DNA of 64,000 bases from a virus (Duplodnaviria; Caudoviricetes), in the IMG/VR virus record IMGVR_UViG_3300028738_000008; one strand, 5' to 3'. The translations under genes were made by a program, and so were the position numbers. Positions 5,503-64,000 of this stretch are shown piece after piece (within the stretch, counting starts at the first letter, position 1; each line of letters begins with the position of its first letter). The notes beneath the pieces are model-generated. The model saw nothing but the letters and a program-made list of their open reading frames with translations. It ran no database searches and was not told the origin of the DNA.

Positions 5503-5587
5503 CTAGGCGTAGCCCTGTAGTTGGTAGCAGTCCTGATTTGGGATCAGGCGTGGTAACACCTCGTGAGTTCGACCCTCACCGCTTAGA
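5503..5587 (+). tRNA. tRNA-Pro(TGG) with long variable arm
   Basis: Acceptor CTAGGCG/CGCTTAG; anticodon arm CCTGA-TTTGGGA-TCAGG; 14-nt extra arm GTG-GTAA-CAC; T arm GTGAG-TTCGACC-CTCAC. Confidence 0.85.
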
Positions 5588-5597
5588 CAAAATTTAT

Positions 5598-5887: not shown

Positions 5888-5962
5888 GGTGATTGTAGCT
5901 TAAACGGATAAAGCGCATGCCTGTGAAGCATGTATATGCGAGATCGTACCTCGTCTTTCACC
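5888..5962 (+). tRNA. tRNA-His(GTG)
   Basis: CATGC-CTGTGAA-GCATG; G-1:C73. Confidence 0.8.
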
Positions 5963-5982
5963 CTAATTTTAAATTAAAGATC

Positions 5983-6747
5983 ATGTATTACGTTGTACAG
6001 AAGAATGTTTTTAGGGAAGAAAATTACGATAATTTGATTATCGCTTTGAATCGGTTGGAGTTGCCATATGAGATCGTTGATGTATTACCTTTTGTAGACA
6101 CCTTCGAATTCAAGACAACCAGAAAGGATGTTTTTCCTTTCGGAGCTGTTAAAATGTCAAGAATTGCCAAAGAATTGGACTGGAATCCAGGCTCTCAATT
6201 ATGTGACAATCATGACTATAACGTATATAGTAAGTATTATAAAGAAAACTTGCTGAACTACGATTCAAGGATTATCAGGTTTGGCGATGATTTCTTTCAA
6301 ACAGAAAGGTTCTTTGCACGTCCGACATTGGATACTAAAGTGTTTACTGGTCATGTGTTTGACATGGGCGAATGGATTAAGTTCAGAGACGAATCCATTG
6401 TCAATGGACATAGCACTTTACTGAACACAGATACTGAAATTCAGATTTCTTCTGTAAAAAATATACAGAAAGAAATAAGGTTTTGGATTGTGAAAGGCGA
6501 AATCGCCACAGCAAGTCAGTATTCTCTGGGTGGAAGATTCTGTGTGAATGAAAACGTCGATCAGTCGGCATATGACTTCGTAAACAGAATGATTAAGATA
6601 TTCGAATTGAATGATACCTTTATTATAGATGCATGCCTTGTTAAAGGCGAATACAAAATAGTTGAATGCGGTTGCACAAACAGTGCTGGCTTCTATCGAG
6701 CAGATATGCAAAAGCTGCTTATGAAATTGGAAGACGCTTTCAATTAA
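5983..6747 (+). CDS. ATP-grasp domain protein (DUF4343-like)
   Basis: FFARPTLDTKVFTG, EIRFWIVKGEI and IVECGCTNSAGFY motifs; start moved to ATG 5983 because 5917 lies inside tRNA-His. Confidence 0.75.
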   Translation: MYYVVQKNVFREENYDNLIIALNRLELPYEIVDVLPFVDTFEFKTTRKDVFPFGAVKMSRIAKELDWNPGSQLCDNHDYNVYSKYYKENLLNYDSRIIRFGDDFFQTERFFARPTLDTKVFTGHVFDMGEWIKFRDESIVNGHSTLLNTDTEIQISSVKNIQKEIRFWIVKGEIATASQYSLGGRFCVNENVDQSAYDFVNRMIKIFELNDTFIIDACLVKGEYKIVECGCTNSAGFYRADMQKLLMKLEDAFN

Positions 6748-10088: not shown

Positions 10089-10178
10089 ACGTCTATGTCC
10101 GAGTGGCTTAAGGAACTGGTCTCCAAAACCAGCGTGGGTGACACCATATCCAAGGTTCGAATCCTTGTTGGCGTGCCA
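10089..10178 (+). tRNA. tRNA with Trp anticodon (CCA) on a Ser-like long-variable-arm body
   Basis: CTGGT-CTCCAAA-ACCAG; D region TGTCCGAGTGGCTTAAGGAA; 18-nt extra arm; G73; encoded CCA. Confidence 0.75.
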
Positions 10179-15112: not shown

Positions 15113-15184
15113 GCTCCTATAGCTTAATGGTAAAGCCTTCGACCTTTAATCGAATGACCCCTGAATCAGTATCAGGTGGGAGCA
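15113..15184 (+). tRNA. tRNA-Lys(TTT)
   Basis: TTCGA-CCTTTAA-TCGAA; variant T loop. Confidence 0.8.
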
Positions 15185-15271: not shown

Positions 15272-15281
15272 CAAAATTATT

Positions 15282-16049: not shown

Positions 16050-16075
16050 TGTAACCTTTTTGGTTTCTTAACGTA
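16050..16075 (+). promoter_or_regulatory. ECF-type promoter upstream of the suppressor tRNA
   Basis: TGTAAC-N16-CGTA, 15 nt before the tRNA 5' end. Confidence 0.7.
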
Positions 16076-16089
16076 TAAGTATTAAAATT

Positions 16090-16161
16090 GGCTCGTTAGT
16101 TCAGCGGTTAGGGCGTCTGACTCTAAATCAGAAGGCATGGTTTCGAATACCATACGAGCCG
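16090..16161 (+). tRNA. Amber suppressor tRNA (anticodon CTA)
   Basis: TCTGA-CTCTAAA-TCAGA perfect arm; GGCTCGT/ACGAGCC; G73. Confidence 0.9.
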
Positions 16162-16175
16162 CAAATAATTATAAT

Positions 16176-23098: not shown

Positions 23099-23300
23099 AT
23101 AAATAAAATGCGGTGCTTCTATGAGGCATCGCATTATTTACTTTCACACAATTTTGATTACGGCTCAGATGAAATTGGAAAGCTAGTTATGATTGTCAAA
23201 CCGTCTAAATGTGTTCTCACAGGATGCGGCGATTTTTAATAAAGCATATATAAAAAAAATAAGTAAAATCTTGTGGTGTAAAGACGAACCGCATAAATAT

Positions 23301-23924
23301 ATGACAAATACACAAAAATTTGTAAAGCGAGAATTAGAGATTCTTGCAGCAACAGTTCCAGATGCAGTTATAACACCTTTCGCAAAAGAAATACTTGCTT
23401 TATGTGAAGCATTTGGGAACTCAGGGCAGAGTGGAGGTTCTGCGCCATATACAGCAAGCGTGCTTGCGCAAGCAATTAAGAAACTTTTACTCCAAGAGCC
23501 AATTTGCGACGTAACTGGACATGAGAATGAATGGATTAACGTTAGCGAAGTTTCTAATGACATTGACTTATATCAGAATTGTAGATGTAGTGCTTTATTT
23601 AAAAATAGCAAGGAGAGCAAAGCGAATTATTTGGATGCCATTGTTTGGAAGGGGACGGAAGCATATGACACATTTACAGGTAGAGTTTATATCGACGATA
23701 AAGACTTCGAACTGATTGGGAGTAGCCATTATGTGAAATTTCCGTTTAAACCAAAAACATTTTATATCGATGTGGTTCGAGTTCCAATTACAAAAGAATT
23801 GGCTGAAAGTAGAGGCATGCACTATATTGAAGACGGGTTAAAAGAATGTTACTATACTATTTTAAAAAATCCCAAACAATTGGAAAAGGTTTTTAAATAC
23901 TATGATAAAAGATGTATCGTCTAA
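23301..23924 (+). CDS. Hypothetical phage protein
   Basis: Likely start ATG 23301 (track start 23193). Confidence 0.75.
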   Translation: MTNTQKFVKRELEILAATVPDAVITPFAKEILALCEAFGNSGQSGGSAPYTASVLAQAIKKLLLQEPICDVTGHENEWINVSEVSNDIDLYQNCRCSALFKNSKESKANYLDAIVWKGTEAYDTFTGRVYIDDKDFELIGSSHYVKFPFKPKTFYIDVVRVPITKELAESRGMHYIEDGLKECYYTILKNPKQLEKVFKYYDKRCIV

Positions 23925-24629: not shown

Positions 24630-24714
24630 GCAAGGCTAGCTAAGTGGTCGAAAGTAGGTGATTGCAAACCATCTGGAAGAAATTCCCTCACTGGTTCAAA
24701 TCCAGTGCCTTGCT
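24630..24714 (+). tRNA. tRNA-Cys(GCA) with long variable arm
   Basis: GCAAGGC/GCCTTGC; loop TTGCAAA; U73; 16-nt extra arm GGAA-GAAA-TTCC. Confidence 0.85.
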
Positions 24715-24734
24715 CATATCATATTGATAATCAT

Positions 24735-25619: not shown

Positions 25620-25702
25620 GGAAGGTAGCATGCAGTGGTGCATAAGTGGCTTTGAACACCATGCCGATGTAAAAGTCGAGAGTTCGATTCTTTTACCTTC
25701 CG
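25620..25702 (+). tRNA. tRNA-Ser(TGA)
   Basis: GGAAGGT/ACCTTCC; loop TTTGAAC; long arm; G73. Confidence 0.85.
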
Positions 25703-25709
25703 CTTAGAA

Positions 25710-26481: not shown

Positions 26482-26567
26482 GCAGTAATCGCATAGTTGG
26501 TCGATTGCGCCAGCCTTCCAAGCTGGAAAGAGAAATCACGGCGAGGGTTCGAATCCCTCTTACTGCT
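26482..26567 (+). tRNA. tRNA-Gly(TCC) with long variable region
   Basis: CCAGC-CTTCCAA-GCTGG; 16-nt variable region; U73. Confidence 0.85.
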
Positions 26568-26583
26568 CAATAAATTGTTAATA

Positions 26584-27323: not shown

Positions 27324-27413
27324 TGCGAGTTAGAGAAGTCAGGCCTATCTCACCAGTCTCATAAGCTGGAGTACCGTTTAAAAGTATCGTTGGTTCGAAT
27401 CCAGCACTCGCTT
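27324..27413 (+). tRNA. tRNA-Met(CAT), initiator-like 1:72 mismatch, long variable arm
   Basis: CCAGT-CTCATAA-GCTGG; 19-nt variable region. Confidence 0.8.
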
Positions 27414-27427
27414 CATTAAAAACACAC

Positions 27428-27512
27428 TGCGGAATGGTGTAATTGGCAACACACGAGGCTCATAACCTTGAGACATTAAATGCTTGTATTGGTTCGAATC
27501 CAATTTCCGCTT
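27428..27512 (+). tRNA. tRNA-Met(CAT), initiator-like 1:72 mismatch, long variable arm
   Basis: CGAGG-CTCATAA-CCTTG; 17-nt variable region. Confidence 0.8.
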
Positions 27513-27526
27513 CTATAATTATAATT

Positions 27527-27612: not shown

Positions 27613-27693
27613 GCTTAGTTAGCCAAGTGGCAAGGCAGCAGACTGTTAATCTGCCGAAGAAATTCATCGTAGGTTCGATCCCTACACTAAGCG
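27613..27693 (+). tRNA. tRNA-Asn(GTT) with long variable region
   Basis: GCAGA-CTGTTAA-TCTGC; 14-nt variable GAA-GAAA-TTC; G73. Confidence 0.88.
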
Positions 27694-27762
27694 CAAATAC
27701 TTTATATTTTTTGTTGCATATCTAATTTATTATCATTAAATTTGCAGCCTAAAACATTTAAT

Positions 27763-29534: not shown

Positions 29535-29610
29535 GGAGGCGTATCACAACAATCTTCTAAATTGTTTTAGTGTAATTGGACTGATGTGGGTTCGACTCCC
29601 ATCGCCTCTT
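29535..29610 (+). tRNA. Atypical D-armless tRNA-Arg(TCT)
   Basis: GGAGGCG/CGCCTCT, TATCAC linker, AACAAT-CTTCTAA-ATTGTT, TTAGT-GTAATTGG-ACTGA hairpin, T arm GTGGG-TTCGACT-CCCAT. Confidence 0.65.
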
Positions 29611-46853: not shown

Positions 46854-47317
46854 TAAAGACATTGGCAGAATCATGTGTAATTAATGATATAATCTCGGAT
46901 ATGTTTTTACCATACGAACTATCATTAAAATTAAAGGAACTTAAATTCAATGAACCCTGCTTGGCATTCTATGCAACAGATCCTTTCACTAAGGCAGATG
47001 ATATGCAGCTAAAGATGGTAAAGCAATTACCAAATACTCCGATAGACGCATGTAGGAATTCAGAATTTGGAGGCAGCATAGCTGCACCAACATTTCAACA
47101 AGCATCCGACTGGATATTGTTAAAGTATGGATATTTTATATCGTCAACATATGACACATATAAAAAGCTGCATGGAGCAATGGCTGGCGATTATTATGAC
47201 CTATATTTTGCTGGATATCATGCGACACAAAATATTGCTATGATTGCAATCATTAAAAAAATGCTTCTTTTAATATCTGAAAATTTACTTGAAGGGGATG
47301 GTAAATGCGAAAAGTAG
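46850..47317 (+). CDS. Hypothetical phage protein
   Basis: FLPYELSLKLKELKFNEPC...AAPTFQQASDWILLKY. Confidence 0.75.
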   Translation: MIKTLAESCVINDIISDMFLPYELSLKLKELKFNEPCLAFYATDPFTKADDMQLKMVKQLPNTPIDACRNSEFGGSIAAPTFQQASDWILLKYGYFISSTYDTYKKLHGAMAGDYYDLYFAGYHATQNIAMIAIIKKMLLLISENLLEGDGKCEK

Positions 47318-48210
47318 GCGAGTTCGAAGAGAGATTGAAAGCATACAACGAAGATCATTGCTGGCAATACGACATACGTGTGAAGAACATGGAAGCCGAT
47401 CTAAGCAATGGACAGTTCGACGCCGACTACTGCGACAAATTAAGAGTCTCCGATTTTATATTCGAAAACATTATAGATAAAAAAGAACAGCAAAATCTTA
47501 AAAAGTTTATCGAACGTCATGAGTGGCTCGGAACATTATCTCAATATACGACACATTGGTTCGCTTGCTATCATATTCATAATGACGTAAAGATAATCGC
47601 TGGCGTAATATTATTCAATGTTCCAAACTCCTTTAGCAAAATACTCGGCGAGGAAACTCCACAACTGGAAAGACTTATAAGCCGAGGTGCTTGCATATCA
47701 TGGTCGCCAAAGAACTTGGCAAGTGCTTTCTTAATGTGGTGCATCACATGGATGGTAAAGAATACACAGTACAGACTATTCACAGCCTATTCAGACCCAA
47801 CTGCAAAAGAATTAGGCACAATTTATCAAGCATGTAACTTTTATTACATGGGACAGAGTGCTGGAGCAACCAATCGCTACATAAATCCTTATAACGGAAA
47901 GATTGTGTCCGATAGATATTTCAGACAAAAGACTTCTTACAAAAAGTTCGCAATCGAAATGGGAATCGAATGGCAAAAGAATTGGAATCACCCAACTGGA
48001 ATGTGCTGGGATAATATGTCGAAAGAAACCGAACAAAGATTGAGGGACTATTCAAAAATGAAACAAAGTCAGGCAGAAATTATTCAAATGCCTTCTAAAC
48101 ATAAATATGCATATGTGCTCGGCGTAACCAAACACGAAACACGCCAATTGAGAAAGCTTTATGAGTCAAAGAATAAAAATCATGAATATCCTAAAGACAG
48201 AGGAAAATAA
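47305..48210 (+). CDS. Mom-like (GNAT-fold) DNA modification enzyme
   Basis: FIERHEWLG, LISRGAC, AYSDP and GTIYQACNFYYMG motifs. Confidence 0.7.
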   Translation: MRKVGEFEERLKAYNEDHCWQYDIRVKNMEADLSNGQFDADYCDKLRVSDFIFENIIDKKEQQNLKKFIERHEWLGTLSQYTTHWFACYHIHNDVKIIAGVILFNVPNSFSKILGEETPQLERLISRGACISWSPKNLASAFLMWCITWMVKNTQYRLFTAYSDPTAKELGTIYQACNFYYMGQSAGATNRYINPYNGKIVSDRYFRQKTSYKKFAIEMGIEWQKNWNHPTGMCWDNMSKETEQRLRDYSKMKQSQAEIIQMPSKHKYAYVLGVTKHETRQLRKLYESKNKNHEYPKDRGK

Positions 48211-49720: not shown

Positions 49721-50146
49721 ATGAATACTATATTATGTGCAGCCTTTTGCGGTACAGGCAAAACATACTTCTGTGAGAAAAATGCTAAAGCCATTGAAAT
49801 AGAATACTGGAAGTATAAAGACAAAGGATTGCAAAAAGAGTATATTGCTGATGTGAAAAAACACTTTGGCAAGGTCAAGCATATTTTTATTGCTACCGAT
49901 CCAGAAGGCTTGAAACTTTTAAATAATGAGGGATTTAATATAACTCTCATTTATCCGAATAATGAATTACGAAACGAATATCTTGATAGATATATTGAAA
50001 GAGATAGCCCACATGAATTTATAGGGGCATTTATGAAATACTGGAATCTATGGATTGACGAATTAAAAGAACAAAAATATTGTGAACATATTATATTAGA
50101 AAAGGGTCAATACTTGCAAGACGTTATCAAAAAACTAAAACCATGA
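49721..50146 (+). CDS. P-loop kinase-like protein
   Basis: AAFCGTGKT Walker A. Confidence 0.65.
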   Translation: MNTILCAAFCGTGKTYFCEKNAKAIEIEYWKYKDKGLQKEYIADVKKHFGKVKHIFIATDPEGLKLLNNEGFNITLIYPNNELRNEYLDRYIERDSPHEFIGAFMKYWNLWIDELKEQKYCEHIILEKGQYLQDVIKKLKP

Positions 50147-50748
50147 ACATAAATAATATCATAAAAGACGAGTTATCCAAACTCAATGAAGACGTCATCG
50201 AAAAGTCTAGCGACCCAAACACCATGTCATTCTATCATGGCGGCAACCTAGATCGCTATGACGATTCCTTATCTCAGAAAAAAGGCAGATACGAATACGG
50301 TGCAGGCTTGTACTTAACAACCCACTACGAAACCGCTAATAAGTACTCCAAAGGCTCTAGGAAGATTTATATCATAGAAGTCAATAAAGGAAACGATATA
50401 GCTAACGTCTGGCTGGACTTCAATAACGTAAAAGCTTTTATAAATCTCTACGCAATCAATAACATGCGCAAAGAACTTATTAATACCTTAACCAAATACG
50501 ATAAGGACGGCAAAGTTCCAGCTTATATCCTGAACAACATCTTAAATAATAACCAAGCTATAAGACCTTCAAATACAAAAGCCGTAAGACAATTCTATAT
50601 AGAAAATAACATCGACTACGACATAGTAAATAACCCTTTCGGCTGGGGCGAAGAAATGATGGTGCTTTATAATATGAAGAAAATAAAGTCAGCGAGGATA
50701 ATCAAACCTACCGACAAGATAAAAGACCTTTTAATAAAAAACAATTAA
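50143..50748 (+). CDS. ADP-ribosyltransferase-like protein
   Basis: FYHGG...YGAGLYLTTHYETANKY...E (H-Y-E type pattern). Confidence 0.55.
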   Translation: MNINNIIKDELSKLNEDVIEKSSDPNTMSFYHGGNLDRYDDSLSQKKGRYEYGAGLYLTTHYETANKYSKGSRKIYIIEVNKGNDIANVWLDFNNVKAFINLYAINNMRKELINTLTKYDKDGKVPAYILNNILNNNQAIRPSNTKAVRQFYIENNIDYDIVNNPFGWGEEMMVLYNMKKIKSARIIKPTDKIKDLLIKNN

Positions 50749-54425: not shown

Positions 54426-54965
54426 ATGGTACAAACAATCAAATTTGATCAAATTTATTCAGACTACTACAAACGTATTAGTCATTTTATTGGTTTGAAA
54501 ATTGGTTTTAATTCGGGTATTACTGCCGAATTAACAAACGACGTATTTGTAAAAGTTAATTTACATTTAACCGAATTTGATGCAGAAAAAAGCAGTTTTG
54601 GCACATGGATACACACCATCGCAAAAAACATTATGATTGATTATTCCAGAAGCACGGAATACAAAAATCGCTACAAAACTGCACATATTGACGATACTGT
54701 TAATGATGAACTTCATCAGGTATTTCAAATTGCACACAAAGAAAACAATTCGGATATGGAACAAAACGAGGTTTATGTTCGGATTCAGGCTTCAATGGCA
54801 AAACTAAAGGAAAACGAAAAAACTTTGGTTGAGTTAATTATTCTCAAAGAATACAAATTGAAAGAGGTCGCCGAAATAACAAATATGACTTTGGCAAATG
54901 TAAAAGTAACGATTATGAGAGCAAAGGAAAAAATGAAGTTACAACTCGCAGATATATATTGTTAA
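54426..54965 (+). CDS. ECF-type sigma-70 family sigma factor 1
   Basis: ELTNDVFVKV...FDAEKSSFGTWIHTIAKNIMIDYSR (region 2); KEVAEITNMTLANVKVTIMRAK (region 4). Confidence 0.9.
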   Translation: MVQTIKFDQIYSDYYKRISHFIGLKIGFNSGITAELTNDVFVKVNLHLTEFDAEKSSFGTWIHTIAKNIMIDYSRSTEYKNRYKTAHIDDTVNDELHQVFQIAHKENNSDMEQNEVYVRIQASMAKLKENEKTLVELIILKEYKLKEVAEITNMTLANVKVTIMRAKEKMKLQLADIYC

Positions 54966-56796: not shown

Positions 56797-56985
56797 ATGG
56801 ATGATTATTACAATGTTAAAAGGCTTGCATTAGTTTTATCTGTGCAAGCAGAAATCGAAGGAATGAAGGCTGAAAATATGTTGCGTAGTCAAAATAATGA
56901 GTCGCCAGCATACGGCTCTGATCAATTCAATGAATGTGCAAACAAATTGGAAAATTTGGCTTACGCTCACAACGAACAATTGTAA
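56797..56985 (+). CDS. Hypothetical protein
   Basis: Its stop TAA lies inside the next TGTAAC. Confidence 0.65.
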   Translation: MDDYYNVKRLALVLSVQAEIEGMKAENMLRSQNNESPAYGSDQFNECANKLENLAYAHNEQL

Positions 56986-57017
56986 CCTTTTTGCACAATG
57001 TTCGTATAATATTAAAA

Positions 57018-57143
57018 GGGAGTTAGCATATATTGTATAATGCGAGAGGCGATTGCCATAGGCACATATTTCCTAATGTGGAAATACTTTGACAGTCTAA
57101 AAGTTGTTACTCTATAAAAAAGGTTCGATTCCTTTTATTCCCA
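57018..57143 (+). ncRNA. tRNA-shaped RNA with a branched insertion (about 60 nt) in place of the anticodon loop
   Basis: GGGAGTT/TATTCCC acceptor; GCAT/ATGC D stem; AGAG/CTCT stem enclosing TGCC-ATA-GGCA and ATTTCC/GGAAAT hairpins; T arm AAAGG-TTCGATT-CCTTT; own ECF-type promoter. Confidence 0.65.
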
Positions 57144-57201
57144 CTATTTTTTGTAACCTATTTGCACAATGTTCGTATAATCTTAAACAAACACAATCAT
57201 C

Positions 57202-57543
57202 ATGAAAGAATTTAAGATCGAAGGCAAGCCATTAGAAGATTTGAAAACTGTAATGATTTTCAGAAAGTATAAGAACGGCGAAGTCATTGCTTTAATGCCA
57301 TACGAAATTGCCGATATGCAGGGTCACATAATGTCATACATGCATCAGGTTCAACATTGTGCAACTGATTACAATGGCGTTGTAAGTCAAACAAAGTTGG
57401 CTAAACCAGAAGAGTATGCCGAATTACTTAAGGAACTTGAATGGGTTGGTTACGAAGTGAAAGCCAATTTAAAAAGAAATCACAATGTTTATTTGAAAGA
57501 GTATTACAGAATCGAGAACCTTTACAAAGAATCTTATAAATAA
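57202..57543 (+). CDS. Hypothetical protein
   Basis: After the promoter cassette. Confidence 0.75.
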   Translation: MKEFKIEGKPLEDLKTVMIFRKYKNGEVIALMPYEIADMQGHIMSYMHQVQHCATDYNGVVSQTKLAKPEEYAELLKELEWVGYEVKANLKRNHNVYLKEYYRIENLYKESYK

Positions 57544-57787: not shown

Positions 57788-58303
57788 ATGGAAAGGTATT
57801 CAGATTTTAATAAAGTTTATGTTGAGCACAAAGCTATGGTGTTTAACTTCGTTCTAATCAGAACAAACAACCGTGAAGTCTCGGAAGAGATTACAAGCGA
57901 TGTATTTGTAAAAGTAGCTGAATGTATGGATGTTTTTAATCCTGAGATTGCCAAGTTCACAACTTGGATGCTTACCATAGCAACGAATAAGATTAAAGAT
58001 TACTACAGATCATTGCAGACAGTTGCCAAACTTGGCGAAGTCTATTTATCTGAATACGTTCAAGCCGTTGCCCCAGATAGTAATGATTCAATTGAAAATG
58101 ATGAACTAAGGGCACAAATTGATCGTGCTTTTGATGTTCTTAAGGATATTGAAAAACAGGTTGCTGATCTTTATATTAAACAGGATAAGCAATACAAAGA
58201 GATTGCTGCACTGTTGGATATTCCAATTGGCTCAGTCAAAGGCTATTTAAGCCGTGCCAGAATGAAAATGCAAATCTATCTTAAAGATGTTTATGCTAAC
58301 TAA
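57788..58303 (+). CDS. ECF-type sigma-70 family sigma factor 2
   Basis: EEITSDVFVKV...FNPEIAKFTTWMLTIATNKIKDYYR; YKEIAALLDIPIGSVKGYLSRAR. Confidence 0.92.
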   Translation: MERYSDFNKVYVEHKAMVFNFVLIRTNNREVSEEITSDVFVKVAECMDVFNPEIAKFTTWMLTIATNKIKDYYRSLQTVAKLGEVYLSEYVQAVAPDSNDSIENDELRAQIDRAFDVLKDIEKQVADLYIKQDKQYKEIAALLDIPIGSVKGYLSRARMKMQIYLKDVYAN

Positions 58304-58923: not shown

Positions 58924-59085
58924 ATGAAACCAAAGAAGACTATAGGCGTTCTAATCGACTACGTTAAAGCGAACCGAAAAGGCTCAAGGGACGCAGAACT
59001 GGAGCACTCAACTGGATGGACAGCAACGCATAAGGTTCACAAGTCAGACAAAACATATTCCAGAAAAAAGGCAAAGAATCTGTAA
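58924..59085 (+). CDS. Small basic protein (53 aa)
   Basis: MKPKK...YVKANRKGSRDAELE..TGW..HKVHKS; stop inside the next TGTAAC. Confidence 0.65.
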   Translation: MKPKKTIGVLIDYVKANRKGSRDAELEHSTGWTATHKVHKSDKTYSRKKAKNL

Positions 59086-59208
59086 CCTTTTTTCTGGAAT
59101 CTCGTATAATATAGTGTAGCCTTATGGATTAAGCCTAAATAATTATTTTGATATTAGTTGTAACCTTTTTTGATATTCATCGTATAATCTTAAACAAACA
59201 CAACGATC

Positions 59209-63911: not shown

Positions 63912-64000
63912 AAGAAATTGAAAAATAAGGTTGCAGAGTTGTAACCTTATTTTTTGTTTTGCGTATAATATAGTGTAGCCTTATGACTATTAATTAATTG

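What the first reader, a model, noticed from the sequence alone, without database searches (positions are those of the whole stretch)
57018..57143. Stand-alone tRNA-shaped RNA whose anticodon loop is replaced by a multi-hairpin domain
Seen: a 126-nt element starting just after an ECF-type promoter. It has acceptor, D and T arms, and a stem enclosing about 60 nt with at least two hairpins instead of a 7-nt loop. It is too short for a group I or II intron and has no tmRNA tag frame. It sits among early-type genes, far from the tRNA operons. Inference: a tRNA mimic or decoy, for example against tRNA-sensing defences or synthetases, or a tRNA with an unusual intron.
Basis: partly seen in the sequence, partly recalled or inferred. 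Interest (0 to 1): 0.68.

Follow-up and report, generated by a model that had tools for sequence, protein, structure and literature searches.

The report
tRNA-shaped phage RNA with anticodon insert
A giant peat-soil phage makes, from its own promoter, a conserved tRNA-shaped RNA whose anticodon loop holds a roughly 55-base hairpin; it may act as a tRNA look-alike or be a split tRNA gene, and how such phage tRNA inserts work is still unsolved.

Summary
Window 57018-57143 (+) is a 126-nt RNA gene that starts 7 nt after one of about 27 ECF-type promoters of a ~220-kb peat jumbo phage. It has acceptor, D and T arms and a 4-bp anticodon stem enclosing 61 nt. The enclosed part is one long irregular hairpin plus a 12-nt single strand, not several hairpins.

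Default ARAGORN and Rfam both miss it. It is real because a second phage lineage (L006) keeps it:
- The tRNA parts are 88-90% identical, against about 52% at silent codon positions of the neighbouring gene.
- All eight changes fall where tRNAs tolerate change, including one compensatory D-stem pair.
- The hairpin centre drifts (51%) but keeps its pairing.
- The hairpin base and 3' linker are 17/17 identical.

Removing 54 nt in silico gives only a marginal tRNA: Asn-GUU here and Lys-CUU in the relative.

My odds: a non-decoding tRNA mimic 0.45; a protein-spliced mini-intron tRNA, like the 'enigmatic introns' of Lak megaphages, 0.33. No RNA data exist to decide. Three related lineages lack it at this slot.

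This scan had already noted hairpin inserts in other phages' tRNAs. I rate it a new variant of a known, unexplained kind, with interest 0.5.

The parts
56980..57010 (+). ECF-type promoter (TTGTAACC ... CGTATAAT) that drives the element
   Evidence: Exact repeat of the promoter motif found 4 times. The looser form GTAAC-N15-19-CGTA occurs about 27 times on the + strand, almost always in front of small genes.
57011..57017 (+). Short 5' leader ATTAAAA between the -10 element and G1; presumed RNase P leader
   Evidence: Read from the sequence. A similar leader (TATTAAAATT) precedes the promoter-driven suppressor tRNA at 16090. Processing is inferred.
57018..57024 (+). Acceptor 5' strand (G1-U6, then U7 in the place of U8)
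   Evidence: Pairs with 57137-57142 in the MFE, centroid and RNAalifold structures. Invariant in L006.
57026..57043 (+). D arm (4-bp stem, 10-nt loop)
   Evidence: Compensatory change G9-C26 to A9-U26 in L006. The L006 D loop carries the canonical GG.
57045..57048 (+). Anticodon-stem 5' strand AGAG
   Evidence: Perfect 4-bp pairing with CUCU at 57110-57113 in both lineages.
57050..57103 (+). 54-nt insert (ARAGORN's 'intron', element 33-86)
   Evidence: It contains a long irregular hairpin G34-C80 (57051-57097) with a 5-nt bulge and a conserved apical CCUAAU(G)UGG. Searches give the boundaries. Searches give the hairpin, with two compensatory pairs (51-68, 52-67). The ends CGAUUG and CAGUCUAAAAG are 17/17 identical; the centre is 51% identical.
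57098..57109 (+). Conserved 12-nt single strand UAAAAG-UUGUUA
   Evidence: Its 3' part, with C93, reads as an anticodon-like loop xU-NUU-AC. Only two changes versus L006, at the positions equivalent to tRNA positions 32 and 34. Unpaired in the shared structure.
57110..57113 (+). Anticodon-stem 3' strand CUCU, followed by a 4-5-nt variable loop AUAA(A)
57118..57136 (+). T arm (5-6 bp stem, T loop UUCGAUU)
   Evidence: The L006 loop is UUCAAGU, which keeps U54 U55 C56 R57 A58.
57137..57143 (+). Acceptor 3' strand AUUCCC and discriminator A
   Evidence: L006 continues with an encoded CCA; the window does not.
57147..57152 (+). T run directly after the gene; possible transcription stop
   Evidence: Read from the sequence. 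No canonical terminator hairpin was found. Function is inferred.
57151..57181 (+). Next copy of the promoter, serving the 113-aa gene at 57202-57543
54426..54965 (+). Phage ECF-like sigma factor gene 1 (context)
   Evidence: PHROG sigma factor match. Pfam Sigma70_r2 + r4_2.
57788..58303 (+). Phage ECF-like sigma factor gene 2 (context)

Best explanation
It is a non-decoding tRNA mimic, an accessory small RNA gene of the phage.

Shown:
- It sits behind its own ECF-type promoter in a block of single-gene cassettes.
- It keeps every feature needed for the tRNA L-shape.
- Its best-conserved part is not the tRNA body. It is the junction that replaces the anticodon loop (CGAUUG ... CAGUCUAAAAG, 17/17 identical), together with the tip of the hairpin.

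Inferred:
- The transcript is trimmed and stabilised like a tRNA: RNase P at the ATTAAAA leader, then 3' trimming and CCA.
- It stays unspliced.
- Its acceptor/T/D 'top half' engages a protein that normally handles tRNA.
- The conserved junction, the NUU anticodon-like strand and the ~20-bp rod present an altered anticodon end.

The most likely use is as a decoy or inhibitor of a host tRNA-directed enzyme. An anticodon nuclease aimed at Lys/Asn (NUU) tRNAs is the obvious candidate. That last step is a guess, with about 0.2 of the total probability.
For: (1) Selection on a tRNA shape. Exons are 87.5% and 90% identical, against 52% at third codon positions next door. All 8 exon changes fall at a compensatory D-stem pair, D-loop 16/17, T-loop 57/59 (purine kept) and loop positions 32/34.

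(2) The insert ends are 17/17 identical and ten apical-loop columns are identical, while the hairpin centre is only 51% identical. The insert therefore carries sequence-specific function, more strongly conserved than the tRNA arms.

(3) Left unspliced, the RNA is an in-register cloverleaf: a perfect AGAG/CUCU stem and a 5-nt variable loop.

(4) The only excision that gives a canonical U33/A37 loop needs a stem shifted by 2 nt, with a conserved G.A mismatch, a G.U pair and a 3-nt variable loop. That product passes ARAGORN at only 100-104% of threshold. The phage's 34 tRNAs pass at 102-120%.

(5) The 'anticodon' differs between the two lineages (GUU versus CUU). The discriminator A matches the phage's Lys tRNAs, not its Asn tRNA. 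The phage already has Asn-GTT, Lys-CTT and Lys-TTT genes.

(6) The exons are 36% G+C, against 42-56% for the other long tRNAs shown.

(7) It lies in a hypervariable slot and is absent there in three related lineages, as accessory genes often are.

(8) Among the window's ORFs of 150 aa or more that I scanned, none matched an RNA ligase or splicing endonuclease family; several had no match at all.
Against: - There are no expression, end-mapping or partner data of any kind.
- Only two sequence variants exist, so covariation is thin: 3 compensatory pairs, and 64 of 500 shuffles do as well.
- The conserved insert ends could equally be splice-site recognition elements.
- The pattern in the single strand (x-U-N-U-U-A-C, with changes only at 32 and 34) is exactly what a real anticodon loop would show.
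- Insert-bearing but otherwise good tRNA genes recur in huge phages (PMC6784885; earlier notes of this scan). This suggests that some excision route exists.
- This phage also gives its suppressor tRNA a private promoter with a similar leader, so the layout is not special to non-tRNAs.
- 157 kb of the phage genome was not examined for ligases.
Confidence: 0.45

Rival explanations
1. It is a split tRNA gene. In this reading, a real NUU-anticodon tRNA (Lys-type, Asn-GUU in this lineage) is interrupted between positions 32 and 33 by a 54-nt hairpin mini-intron. The intron cannot splice itself. It is cut out by proteins (a host or phage endonuclease plus an RNA ligase), possibly as a timing switch. 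It would be the same unexplained phenomenon as the Lak megaphage tRNA introns.
For: - ARAGORN calls an intron-bearing tRNA in both lineages.
- Precise removal gives a tRNA that passes default thresholds, with U33 and A37.
- The changes in the loop are confined to positions 32 and 34.
- The conserved insert ends could be recognition sites.
- The hairpin centre drifts at the neutral rate, as intron interiors do.
- Published precedent: inserts of 79-93 nt with no Rfam hit in Lak phage tRNAs (PMC6784885).
- Earlier notes of this scan describe hairpin inserts in other phage tRNAs (unchecked).
- The same promoter and leader design drives the suppressor tRNA.
Against: - No protein-based tRNA splicing is known in bacteria or their phages (established knowledge).
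- No bulge-helix-bulge motif appears in any low-energy fold.
- The helix that would put the two cut sites opposite each other is broken in L006 by two one-sided changes.
- The spliced product is the weakest tRNA of the genome, with a conserved G.A mismatch and a 3-nt variable loop.
- Amino-acid identity would differ between orthologs, and A73 does not fit Asn.
- It is redundant with canonical Asn and Lys tRNAs.
- The tRNA parts are less conserved than the insert ends.
- No insert-less allele was seen in four DNA runs.
Confidence: 0.33
2. It is a natural 'tRNA scaffold'. In this reading the tRNA body only provides processing signals and nuclease resistance. The active part is the hairpin, released or not, acting as a small regulatory RNA or as a protein-binding hairpin.
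For: - The hairpin structure is kept by compensatory changes, and its apical loop CCUAAU(G)UGG is conserved.
- It has the same topology as engineered tRNA scaffolds (PMC3753655).
Against: - The hairpin stem sequence drifts at the neutral rate.
- No complementary target of 12 nt or more lies in the window outside the tRNA-like arms.
- Complementarity to the shared mRNA leader does not co-vary.
- The tRNA body is under tighter constraint than a mere handle would need.
Confidence: 0.08
3. It is a decaying tRNA pseudogene, or a scar of an insertion into a tRNA gene, with no function.
For: - Low G+C, weak stems and a U7.U66 mismatch.
- Missed by default tRNA finders.
- Absent from three related lineages at this slot.
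Against: - 88-90% identity in the arms and 17/17 at the insert ends, against 52% at neutral positions.
- Compensatory pairs are kept.
- It has a dedicated intact promoter in both lineages.
- None of the eight exon changes touches a stem or a universally conserved tRNA nucleotide.
Confidence: 0.04

Closest known systems
'Enigmatic' introns in tRNA genes of Lak megaphages (Devoto et al. 2019, Nat Microbiol; PMC6784885, Table S6)
   Same: A huge-phage tRNA-type gene with an insert in the anticodon loop. The insert is far too short for a group I or II intron and has no Rfam hit. The mechanism is unknown. Presence varies between related genomes.
   Different: - Lak inserts are 79-93 nt and are placed at the canonical 37/38 site. 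The two Table S6 inserts I read each contain a tRNA T-arm-like motif.
- The Lak exons make good tRNAs that sit with other tRNAs.
- Here the insert is 54 nt, at 32/33, and is a plain hairpin with strongly conserved ends.
- The spliced product would be marginal, the 'anticodon' differs between lineages, and the gene stands alone behind its own promoter.
tmRNA (tRNA-like domain joined to a long helix in place of the anticodon arm)
   Same: The acceptor/T-arm 'top half' is kept. The anticodon arm is replaced by an extended helix. The molecule is processed like a tRNA.
   Different: There are no pseudoknots, no conserved tag reading frame and no G3.U70 alanine identity pair. It is 126 nt rather than more than 230. 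ARAGORN's tmRNA mode finds nothing.
Bacterial and phage Y-RNA-like YrlA RNAs (tRNA mimic plus Ro/Rsr-binding stem; from my own knowledge)
   Same: A non-coding RNA built as a tRNA-like elbow fused to a long irregular helix.
   Different: In YrlA the RNA ends lie in the rod and the acceptor is closed, a permuted topology. There is no Rfam match. No TROVE/Ro-type match came up among the window proteins scanned.
Phage tRNAs that counter anticodon nucleases (T5 tRNA-Lys versus PARIS, PMC11464382; phage tRNA-Tyr versus a retron effector, PMC11555353)
   Same: A phage-borne tRNA-type RNA whose altered anticodon region matters for host defence. The Lys (NUU) family is a recurrent target.
   Different: Those are complete decoding tRNAs that replace cleaved host tRNAs. 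Here the anticodon loop is replaced, so any role would be as a decoy. No defence link has been shown.
Engineered tRNA scaffolds for expressing RNA in bacteria (PMC3753655)
   Same: Identical topology: a foreign hairpin grafted into the anticodon stem of a tRNA body, which gives processing and stability.
   Different: That scaffold is man-made. Here the tRNA body and the junction, not the cargo, are the conserved parts.

Membership tests
Canonical tRNA (Rfam RF00005) | Cloverleaf with a 7-nt anticodon loop that scores above the family threshold | tested here: not met
   Rfam gives 20.1 bits against a gathering score of 29, and that alignment uses a different 5' strand. There is no hit at gathering threshold. 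ARAGORN at default settings finds nothing.
Canonical tRNA (Rfam RF00005) | L-shape determinants: U8, A14, G18/G19, A21, T-loop U54 U55 C56 R57 A58, and a 12-bp acceptor/T stack | tested here: met
   Read from the sequence and alignment. U7 and A13 stand in the U8 and A14 places. The D loop has a G (GG in L006). The T loops are UUCGAUU and UUCAAGU. The acceptor/T stack is 6+6 or 7+5 bp.
tRNA with a self-splicing group I intron | Intron of roughly 200 nt or more with the P1-P9 catalytic core | tested here: not met
   The insert is 54 nt. No group I match appears even at E<=10 or in L006.
Archaeal/eukaryal protein-spliced tRNA intron | Bulge-helix-bulge motif at the exon-intron junctions, and a splicing endonuclease in the host or virus | tested here: not met
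   No pair of 3-nt bulges around a 4-bp helix appears in the MFE, constrained or consensus folds. The promoters and sigma factors are bacterial. No endonuclease family was matched among the window ORFs scanned. The rest of the genome was not examined.
Lak-type 'enigmatic' phage tRNA insert | Huge-phage tRNA-type gene with a non-self-splicing insert in the anticodon loop and no Rfam family | tested here: met
   The source is a ~220-kb phage contig. The insert lies in the anticodon loop. There is no Rfam hit.
Lak-type 'enigmatic' phage tRNA insert | Removal of the insert restores a normal, well-scoring tRNA of stable identity | tested here: inconclusive
   The product passes ARAGORN default, but at the bottom of the genome's range. 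It has a G.A mismatch and a 3-nt variable loop. The anticodon is GUU in one lineage and CUU in the other.
Lak-type 'enigmatic' phage tRNA insert | The insert is actually excised in vivo | not testable with these tools
   No RNA run holds the sequence. Excision has not been demonstrated for the Lak cases either (PMC6784885).
tmRNA | Tag-peptide reading frame with a resume codon, pseudoknots, and G3.U70 | tested here: not met
   ARAGORN -m finds nothing. The frame through the insert is shifted and stopped early in L006 by a 1-nt deletion. The pair at that position is G3-C70.
YrlA / Y RNA | Ro/Rsr-binding stem formed by the RNA ends, usually with an rsr gene nearby | tested here: not met
   No Rfam match. 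The RNA ends lie in the acceptor stem. No TROVE match came up among the window proteins scanned.

The most novel reading that the evidence does not exclude
The RNA is never spliced and acts as an RNA decoy. In this reading it is a tRNA-shaped molecule made early in infection. Its conserved pseudo-anticodon junction traps or blocks a host tRNA-cleaving defence enzyme of the Lys/Asn (NUU) class. That would be an RNA-based anti-defence by tRNA mimicry, which has not been described.
Probability: 0.18. Interest if true: 0.8.

Novelty: new variant of a known kind. Interest (0 to 1): 0.5.

Why it matters
Short inserts in the tRNA genes of huge phages have been in print since 2019 without a mechanism. 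Bacteria have no known protein-based tRNA splicing, and these inserts are too small to splice themselves.

This element is a compact case with unusual properties:
- It is 126 nt and has its own promoter.
- The insert's ends are more conserved than the tRNA body.
- The 'anticodon' differs between two lineages.

A single Northern blot or tRNA-seq experiment on an expressed cassette would say which of two answers holds. Either such RNAs are spliced, which would mean a new splicing route in bacteria or phages. Or they work as full-length tRNA mimics, which would be a new class of phage small RNA, possibly anti-defence.

Its weaknesses as a model are an uncultured phage, an unknown host and only two sequence variants.

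Tried and rejected
Searches for known families or relatives:
- Known RNA families: nothing in Rfam at gathering threshold or at E<=10 except a 20-bit partial tRNA match. Nothing for the L006 copy.
- tmRNA: no ARAGORN call, and the 20-codon frame through the insert is not conserved in L006.
- Relatives by DNA: blastn of 2.2 kb against 50,697 phage records found no match.
- Pattern scans of viral contigs found nothing in three scans, and both scans of metagenome contigs found nothing. Those collections evidently lack even the window's own phage, so these blanks say little.
- Genome contigs: one scan found nothing, and one gave two chance matches inside coding DNA.
- Relatives by neighbouring proteins: this gave one second lineage with the element (L006-L010) and three without it at the slot (L011; an ENA contig judged only by its 80-nt gap, no DNA held; and the 328-kb phage L012/L014).
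- Covariance model R1 found no further copy in 132 kb of held sequence. The whole records of L012 and L004 are not held.

Expression and population data:
- Expression: no RNA holder is listed among public runs.
- Four peat DNA runs laid on the region showed no variant and no joined (insert-less) form.

Structural and functional ideas tested:
- The long GU-rich extension of the anticodon stem in the window's MFE fold is broken by two one-sided changes in L006.
- The register of the hairpin base (GAUUG/CAGUC versus AGRY/GUCU) could not be settled with two sequences.
- Antisense targets: only chance-level matches.
- Pairing of the single strand with the shared mRNA leader: the leader stays the same while the strand changes.
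- K-turn, hammerhead core, and Cas12a or Cas13b repeat mimicry: checked by eye against motifs recalled from memory; none is conserved in both lineages.
- RNase III-type staggered cuts at the ARAGORN boundaries: the offset is 3-5 bp, not 2, and the helix is not conserved.
- Origin by duplication of one of the phage's own tRNAs: the best identity is 50 of 72, with no close paralogue.
- Neighbouring small proteins: no informative family or solved structure.

Full report
**What is there.** Window 57018-57143 (+) reads as a 126-nt tRNA-shaped sequence.
- The minimum-free-energy fold, which is also the centroid, has a 6-bp acceptor helix, a 4-bp D stem with a 10-nt loop, and a 6-bp T stem with the loop UUCGAUU.
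- A stem in the anticodon-arm position encloses about 60 nt (-31.2 kcal/mol, z = -2.1).
- ARAGORN at default settings and Rfam at gathering threshold list 33-34 tRNAs in the window but not this one.
- With introns allowed and the threshold lowered to 95%, ARAGORN calls tRNA-Asn(GTT) with a 54-nt intron between positions 32 and 33. It is the only intron-type call in the window.
- That call alone is weak evidence: 40 dinucleotide shuffles of the window gave 7 intron-type calls.
- Rfam at E<=10 gives only a 20-bit tRNA alignment that borrows a different 5' strand.

**Context.** The window is the end of a ~220-kb phage contig recovered many times from peat metagenomes.
- It has 34% G+C, 33-36 tRNA genes in arrays between 5.5 and 33.4 kb, and an amber-suppressor tRNA.
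- The motif TTGTAACC-N15-CGTATAAT occurs about 27 times on the + strand. 22 of these lie between 55.3 and 64 kb, nearly always followed by the leader CTTAAACAAACA and a small gene.
- Two sigma factors with only regions 2 and 4 lie at 54426-54965 and 57788-58303.
- The element begins 7 nt after one such promoter, lacks the mRNA leader, and is followed by a T run and the next promoter.
- The suppressor tRNA at 16090 has the same kind of private promoter and a similar ATTAAAA-type leader. So a promoter-driven single tRNA gene is not unique to this locus.

**Is it real?** Homologues of the downstream 113-aa protein led to a second lineage (L006-L010; that protein is 71% identical and the sigma factor 79%). 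This lineage carries the element at the same place. Comparing the two copies:
- The 5' tRNA part is 87.5% identical and the 3' part 90%.
- Third codon positions of the neighbouring gene are 52% identical, which I use as the neutral yardstick.
- The eight changes in the tRNA parts are:
  - a compensatory D-stem pair (G-C to A-U);
  - two D-loop bases (giving the canonical GG in L006);
  - T-loop positions 57 (G to A) and 59;
  - two bases in the single strand, at the places equivalent to anticodon-loop positions 32 and 34.
- No stem is weakened and no universally conserved tRNA base is touched.
- L006 also encodes CCA after the discriminator.
- RNAalifold, run blind on the pair, returns the cloverleaf arms and the AGAG/CUCU stem.

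This is purifying selection on a tRNA-shaped molecule, so decay is very unlikely.

**The insert.** Between AGAG and CUCU lie 61 nt.
- Both copies fold this stretch into one long irregular hairpin with a 5-nt bulge on the 5' side and a 5-6-nt apical loop. They do not fold it into several hairpins.
- Two apical pairs change on both sides and stay paired.
- The centre of the hairpin is only 51% identical, which is neutral at the sequence level. Ten apical columns, CCUAAU and UGGA, are identical.
- The two ends of the insert, CGAUUG and CAGUCUAAAAG, are 17/17 identical. At 52% neutral identity that has a chance of about 1e-5 (my calculation).
- The register at the hairpin base is ambiguous: GAUUG/CAGUC is favoured in L006 and AGGC/GUCU in the window.
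- The GU-rich extension in the window's MFE fold is not kept in L006.
- The strand 3' of the hairpin (UAAAAG-UUGUUA in the window, -AUCUUA in L006) is unpaired in the shared structure.

**Spliced or not?** I tried 170 hypothetical excisions per copy.
- The only product with a canonical loop (U33, purine 37) in both copies comes from removing 33-86. It gives Asn-GUU in the window and Lys-CUU in L006.
- That product needs the anticodon stem shifted by 2 nt. It then has a conserved G.A mismatch, a G.U pair and a 3-nt variable loop.
- It survives only to 100-104% of ARAGORN's threshold, while the phage's 34 tRNAs survive to 102-120%.
- In the unshifted, perfect AGAG/CUCU register, with a normal 5-nt variable loop, no simple excision gives U33 in both copies.
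- The discriminator A matches the phage's two Lys tRNAs, not its Asn tRNA, which has G.
- The phage already has Asn-GTT, Lys-CTT and Lys-TTT genes.
- The insert is too short for a group I or II intron, has no Rfam match, and shows no bulge-helix-bulge motif.
- No RNA ligase or splicing endonuclease family was matched among the window ORFs of 150 aa or more that I scanned. 157 kb of the genome was not examined.

Against this stand several points:
- The x-U-N-U-U-A-C pattern, varying only at 32 and 34, looks like a true anticodon loop.
- Conserved insert ends are what splice-site recognition would need.
- Insert-bearing tRNA genes are a published, recurrent and unexplained feature of huge phages. 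Lak megaphages have inserts of 79-93 nt at 37/38 with no Rfam hit (PMC6784885).
- Earlier, unchecked notes of this scan describe hairpin inserts in other phages' tRNAs.

**Distribution.** The slot between the conserved 73-aa and 113-aa genes is hypervariable.
- The window has a 62-aa gene plus the element.
- L006 has unrelated 50-aa and 93-aa genes plus the element and an extra hairpin.
- L011 has only a terminator and promoter.
- An ENA contig has an 80-nt gap there.
- The 328-kb relative L012/L014, which shares the promoter system, has a 95-nt gap and no match to model R1 within 20 kb.

So the element is an accessory cassette, kept in two of five lineages.

**Verdict.**
- I put 0.45 on a full-length, non-decoding tRNA mimic whose business end is the conserved junction. 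A decoy for a tRNA-directed host enzyme is the leading but untested mechanism.
- I put 0.33 on a protein-spliced mini-intron tRNA, 0.08 on a scaffold for the hairpin, and 0.04 on a relic.
- No RNA data are available. DNA runs show no insert-less allele.
- It is a new variant of a known but unexplained kind. Its value is as a small, cleanly bounded test case.

Noticed in passing
window 5503-5588, 10089-10178, 24630-24715, 26482-26568, 27324-27414, 27428-27513, 27613-27694: The tRNAs for Pro, Trp, Cys, Gly(TCC), Met (two) and Asn are 82-91 nt long. ARAGORN draws an extra variable stem-loop in most of them and a long unpaired variable region in Gly(TCC). These isoacceptors are short-armed (class I) in cells.
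   Followed up: partly
window 25620-25704: A further odd tRNA-like gene, missed by ARAGORN and by Rfam at threshold. It has a long acceptor, a 9-nt 'anticodon' loop CUUUGAACA and a long variable arm. It matches tRNA-Sec weakly (25 bits against a gathering score of 47). It lies directly after an HNH/HTH ORF.
   Followed up: partly
window 29535-29610 and 15113-15184: These tRNA matches are found by Rfam only. The 29535 match scores 33 bits and, by eye, its D region looks aberrant. ARAGORN does not call either one.
   Followed up: no
window 16051-16162: The amber-suppressor tRNA (anticodon CTA) has its own ECF-type promoter and an ATTAAAA-type leader like the element. This hints at timed stop-codon suppression.
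   Followed up: no
window 59082-59150 and 63941-64000: Two ECF-type promoters are followed not by the usual leader but by ATAGTGTAGCCTTATG, with 2- and 4-codon mini-ORFs. These may be short non-coding transcripts or leader peptides.
   Followed up: no
window tRNA genes, 3' flanks (e.g. 15273-15276, 27695-27698): In five of the six canonical tRNA genes whose 3' flanks I printed, the discriminator is followed by CAAA (CAAC in the sixth) rather than CCA. This may be a shared 3'-processing signal.
   Followed up: no
window 5917-6747: An R2K-clade ATP-grasp gene lies inside the tRNA array, between tRNA-His and tRNA-Gln.
   Followed up: no
window 23193-23924, 47305-48210, 50143-50748: A Tad3-like Thoeris-inhibitor domain and a Mom-family domain pass Pfam's cut-offs. 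An ART-PolyVal-like match scores below Pfam's cut-off. Together they suggest a large anti-defence and DNA-modification repertoire.
   Followed up: no
L012 7315-7869 and 8380-8772; window promoter spacers: The motif CACAATGTTCG recurs in the 328-kb relative next to T runs just upstream of promoters. In the window it forms the spacer of four promoters. Its meaning is unknown.
   Followed up: no
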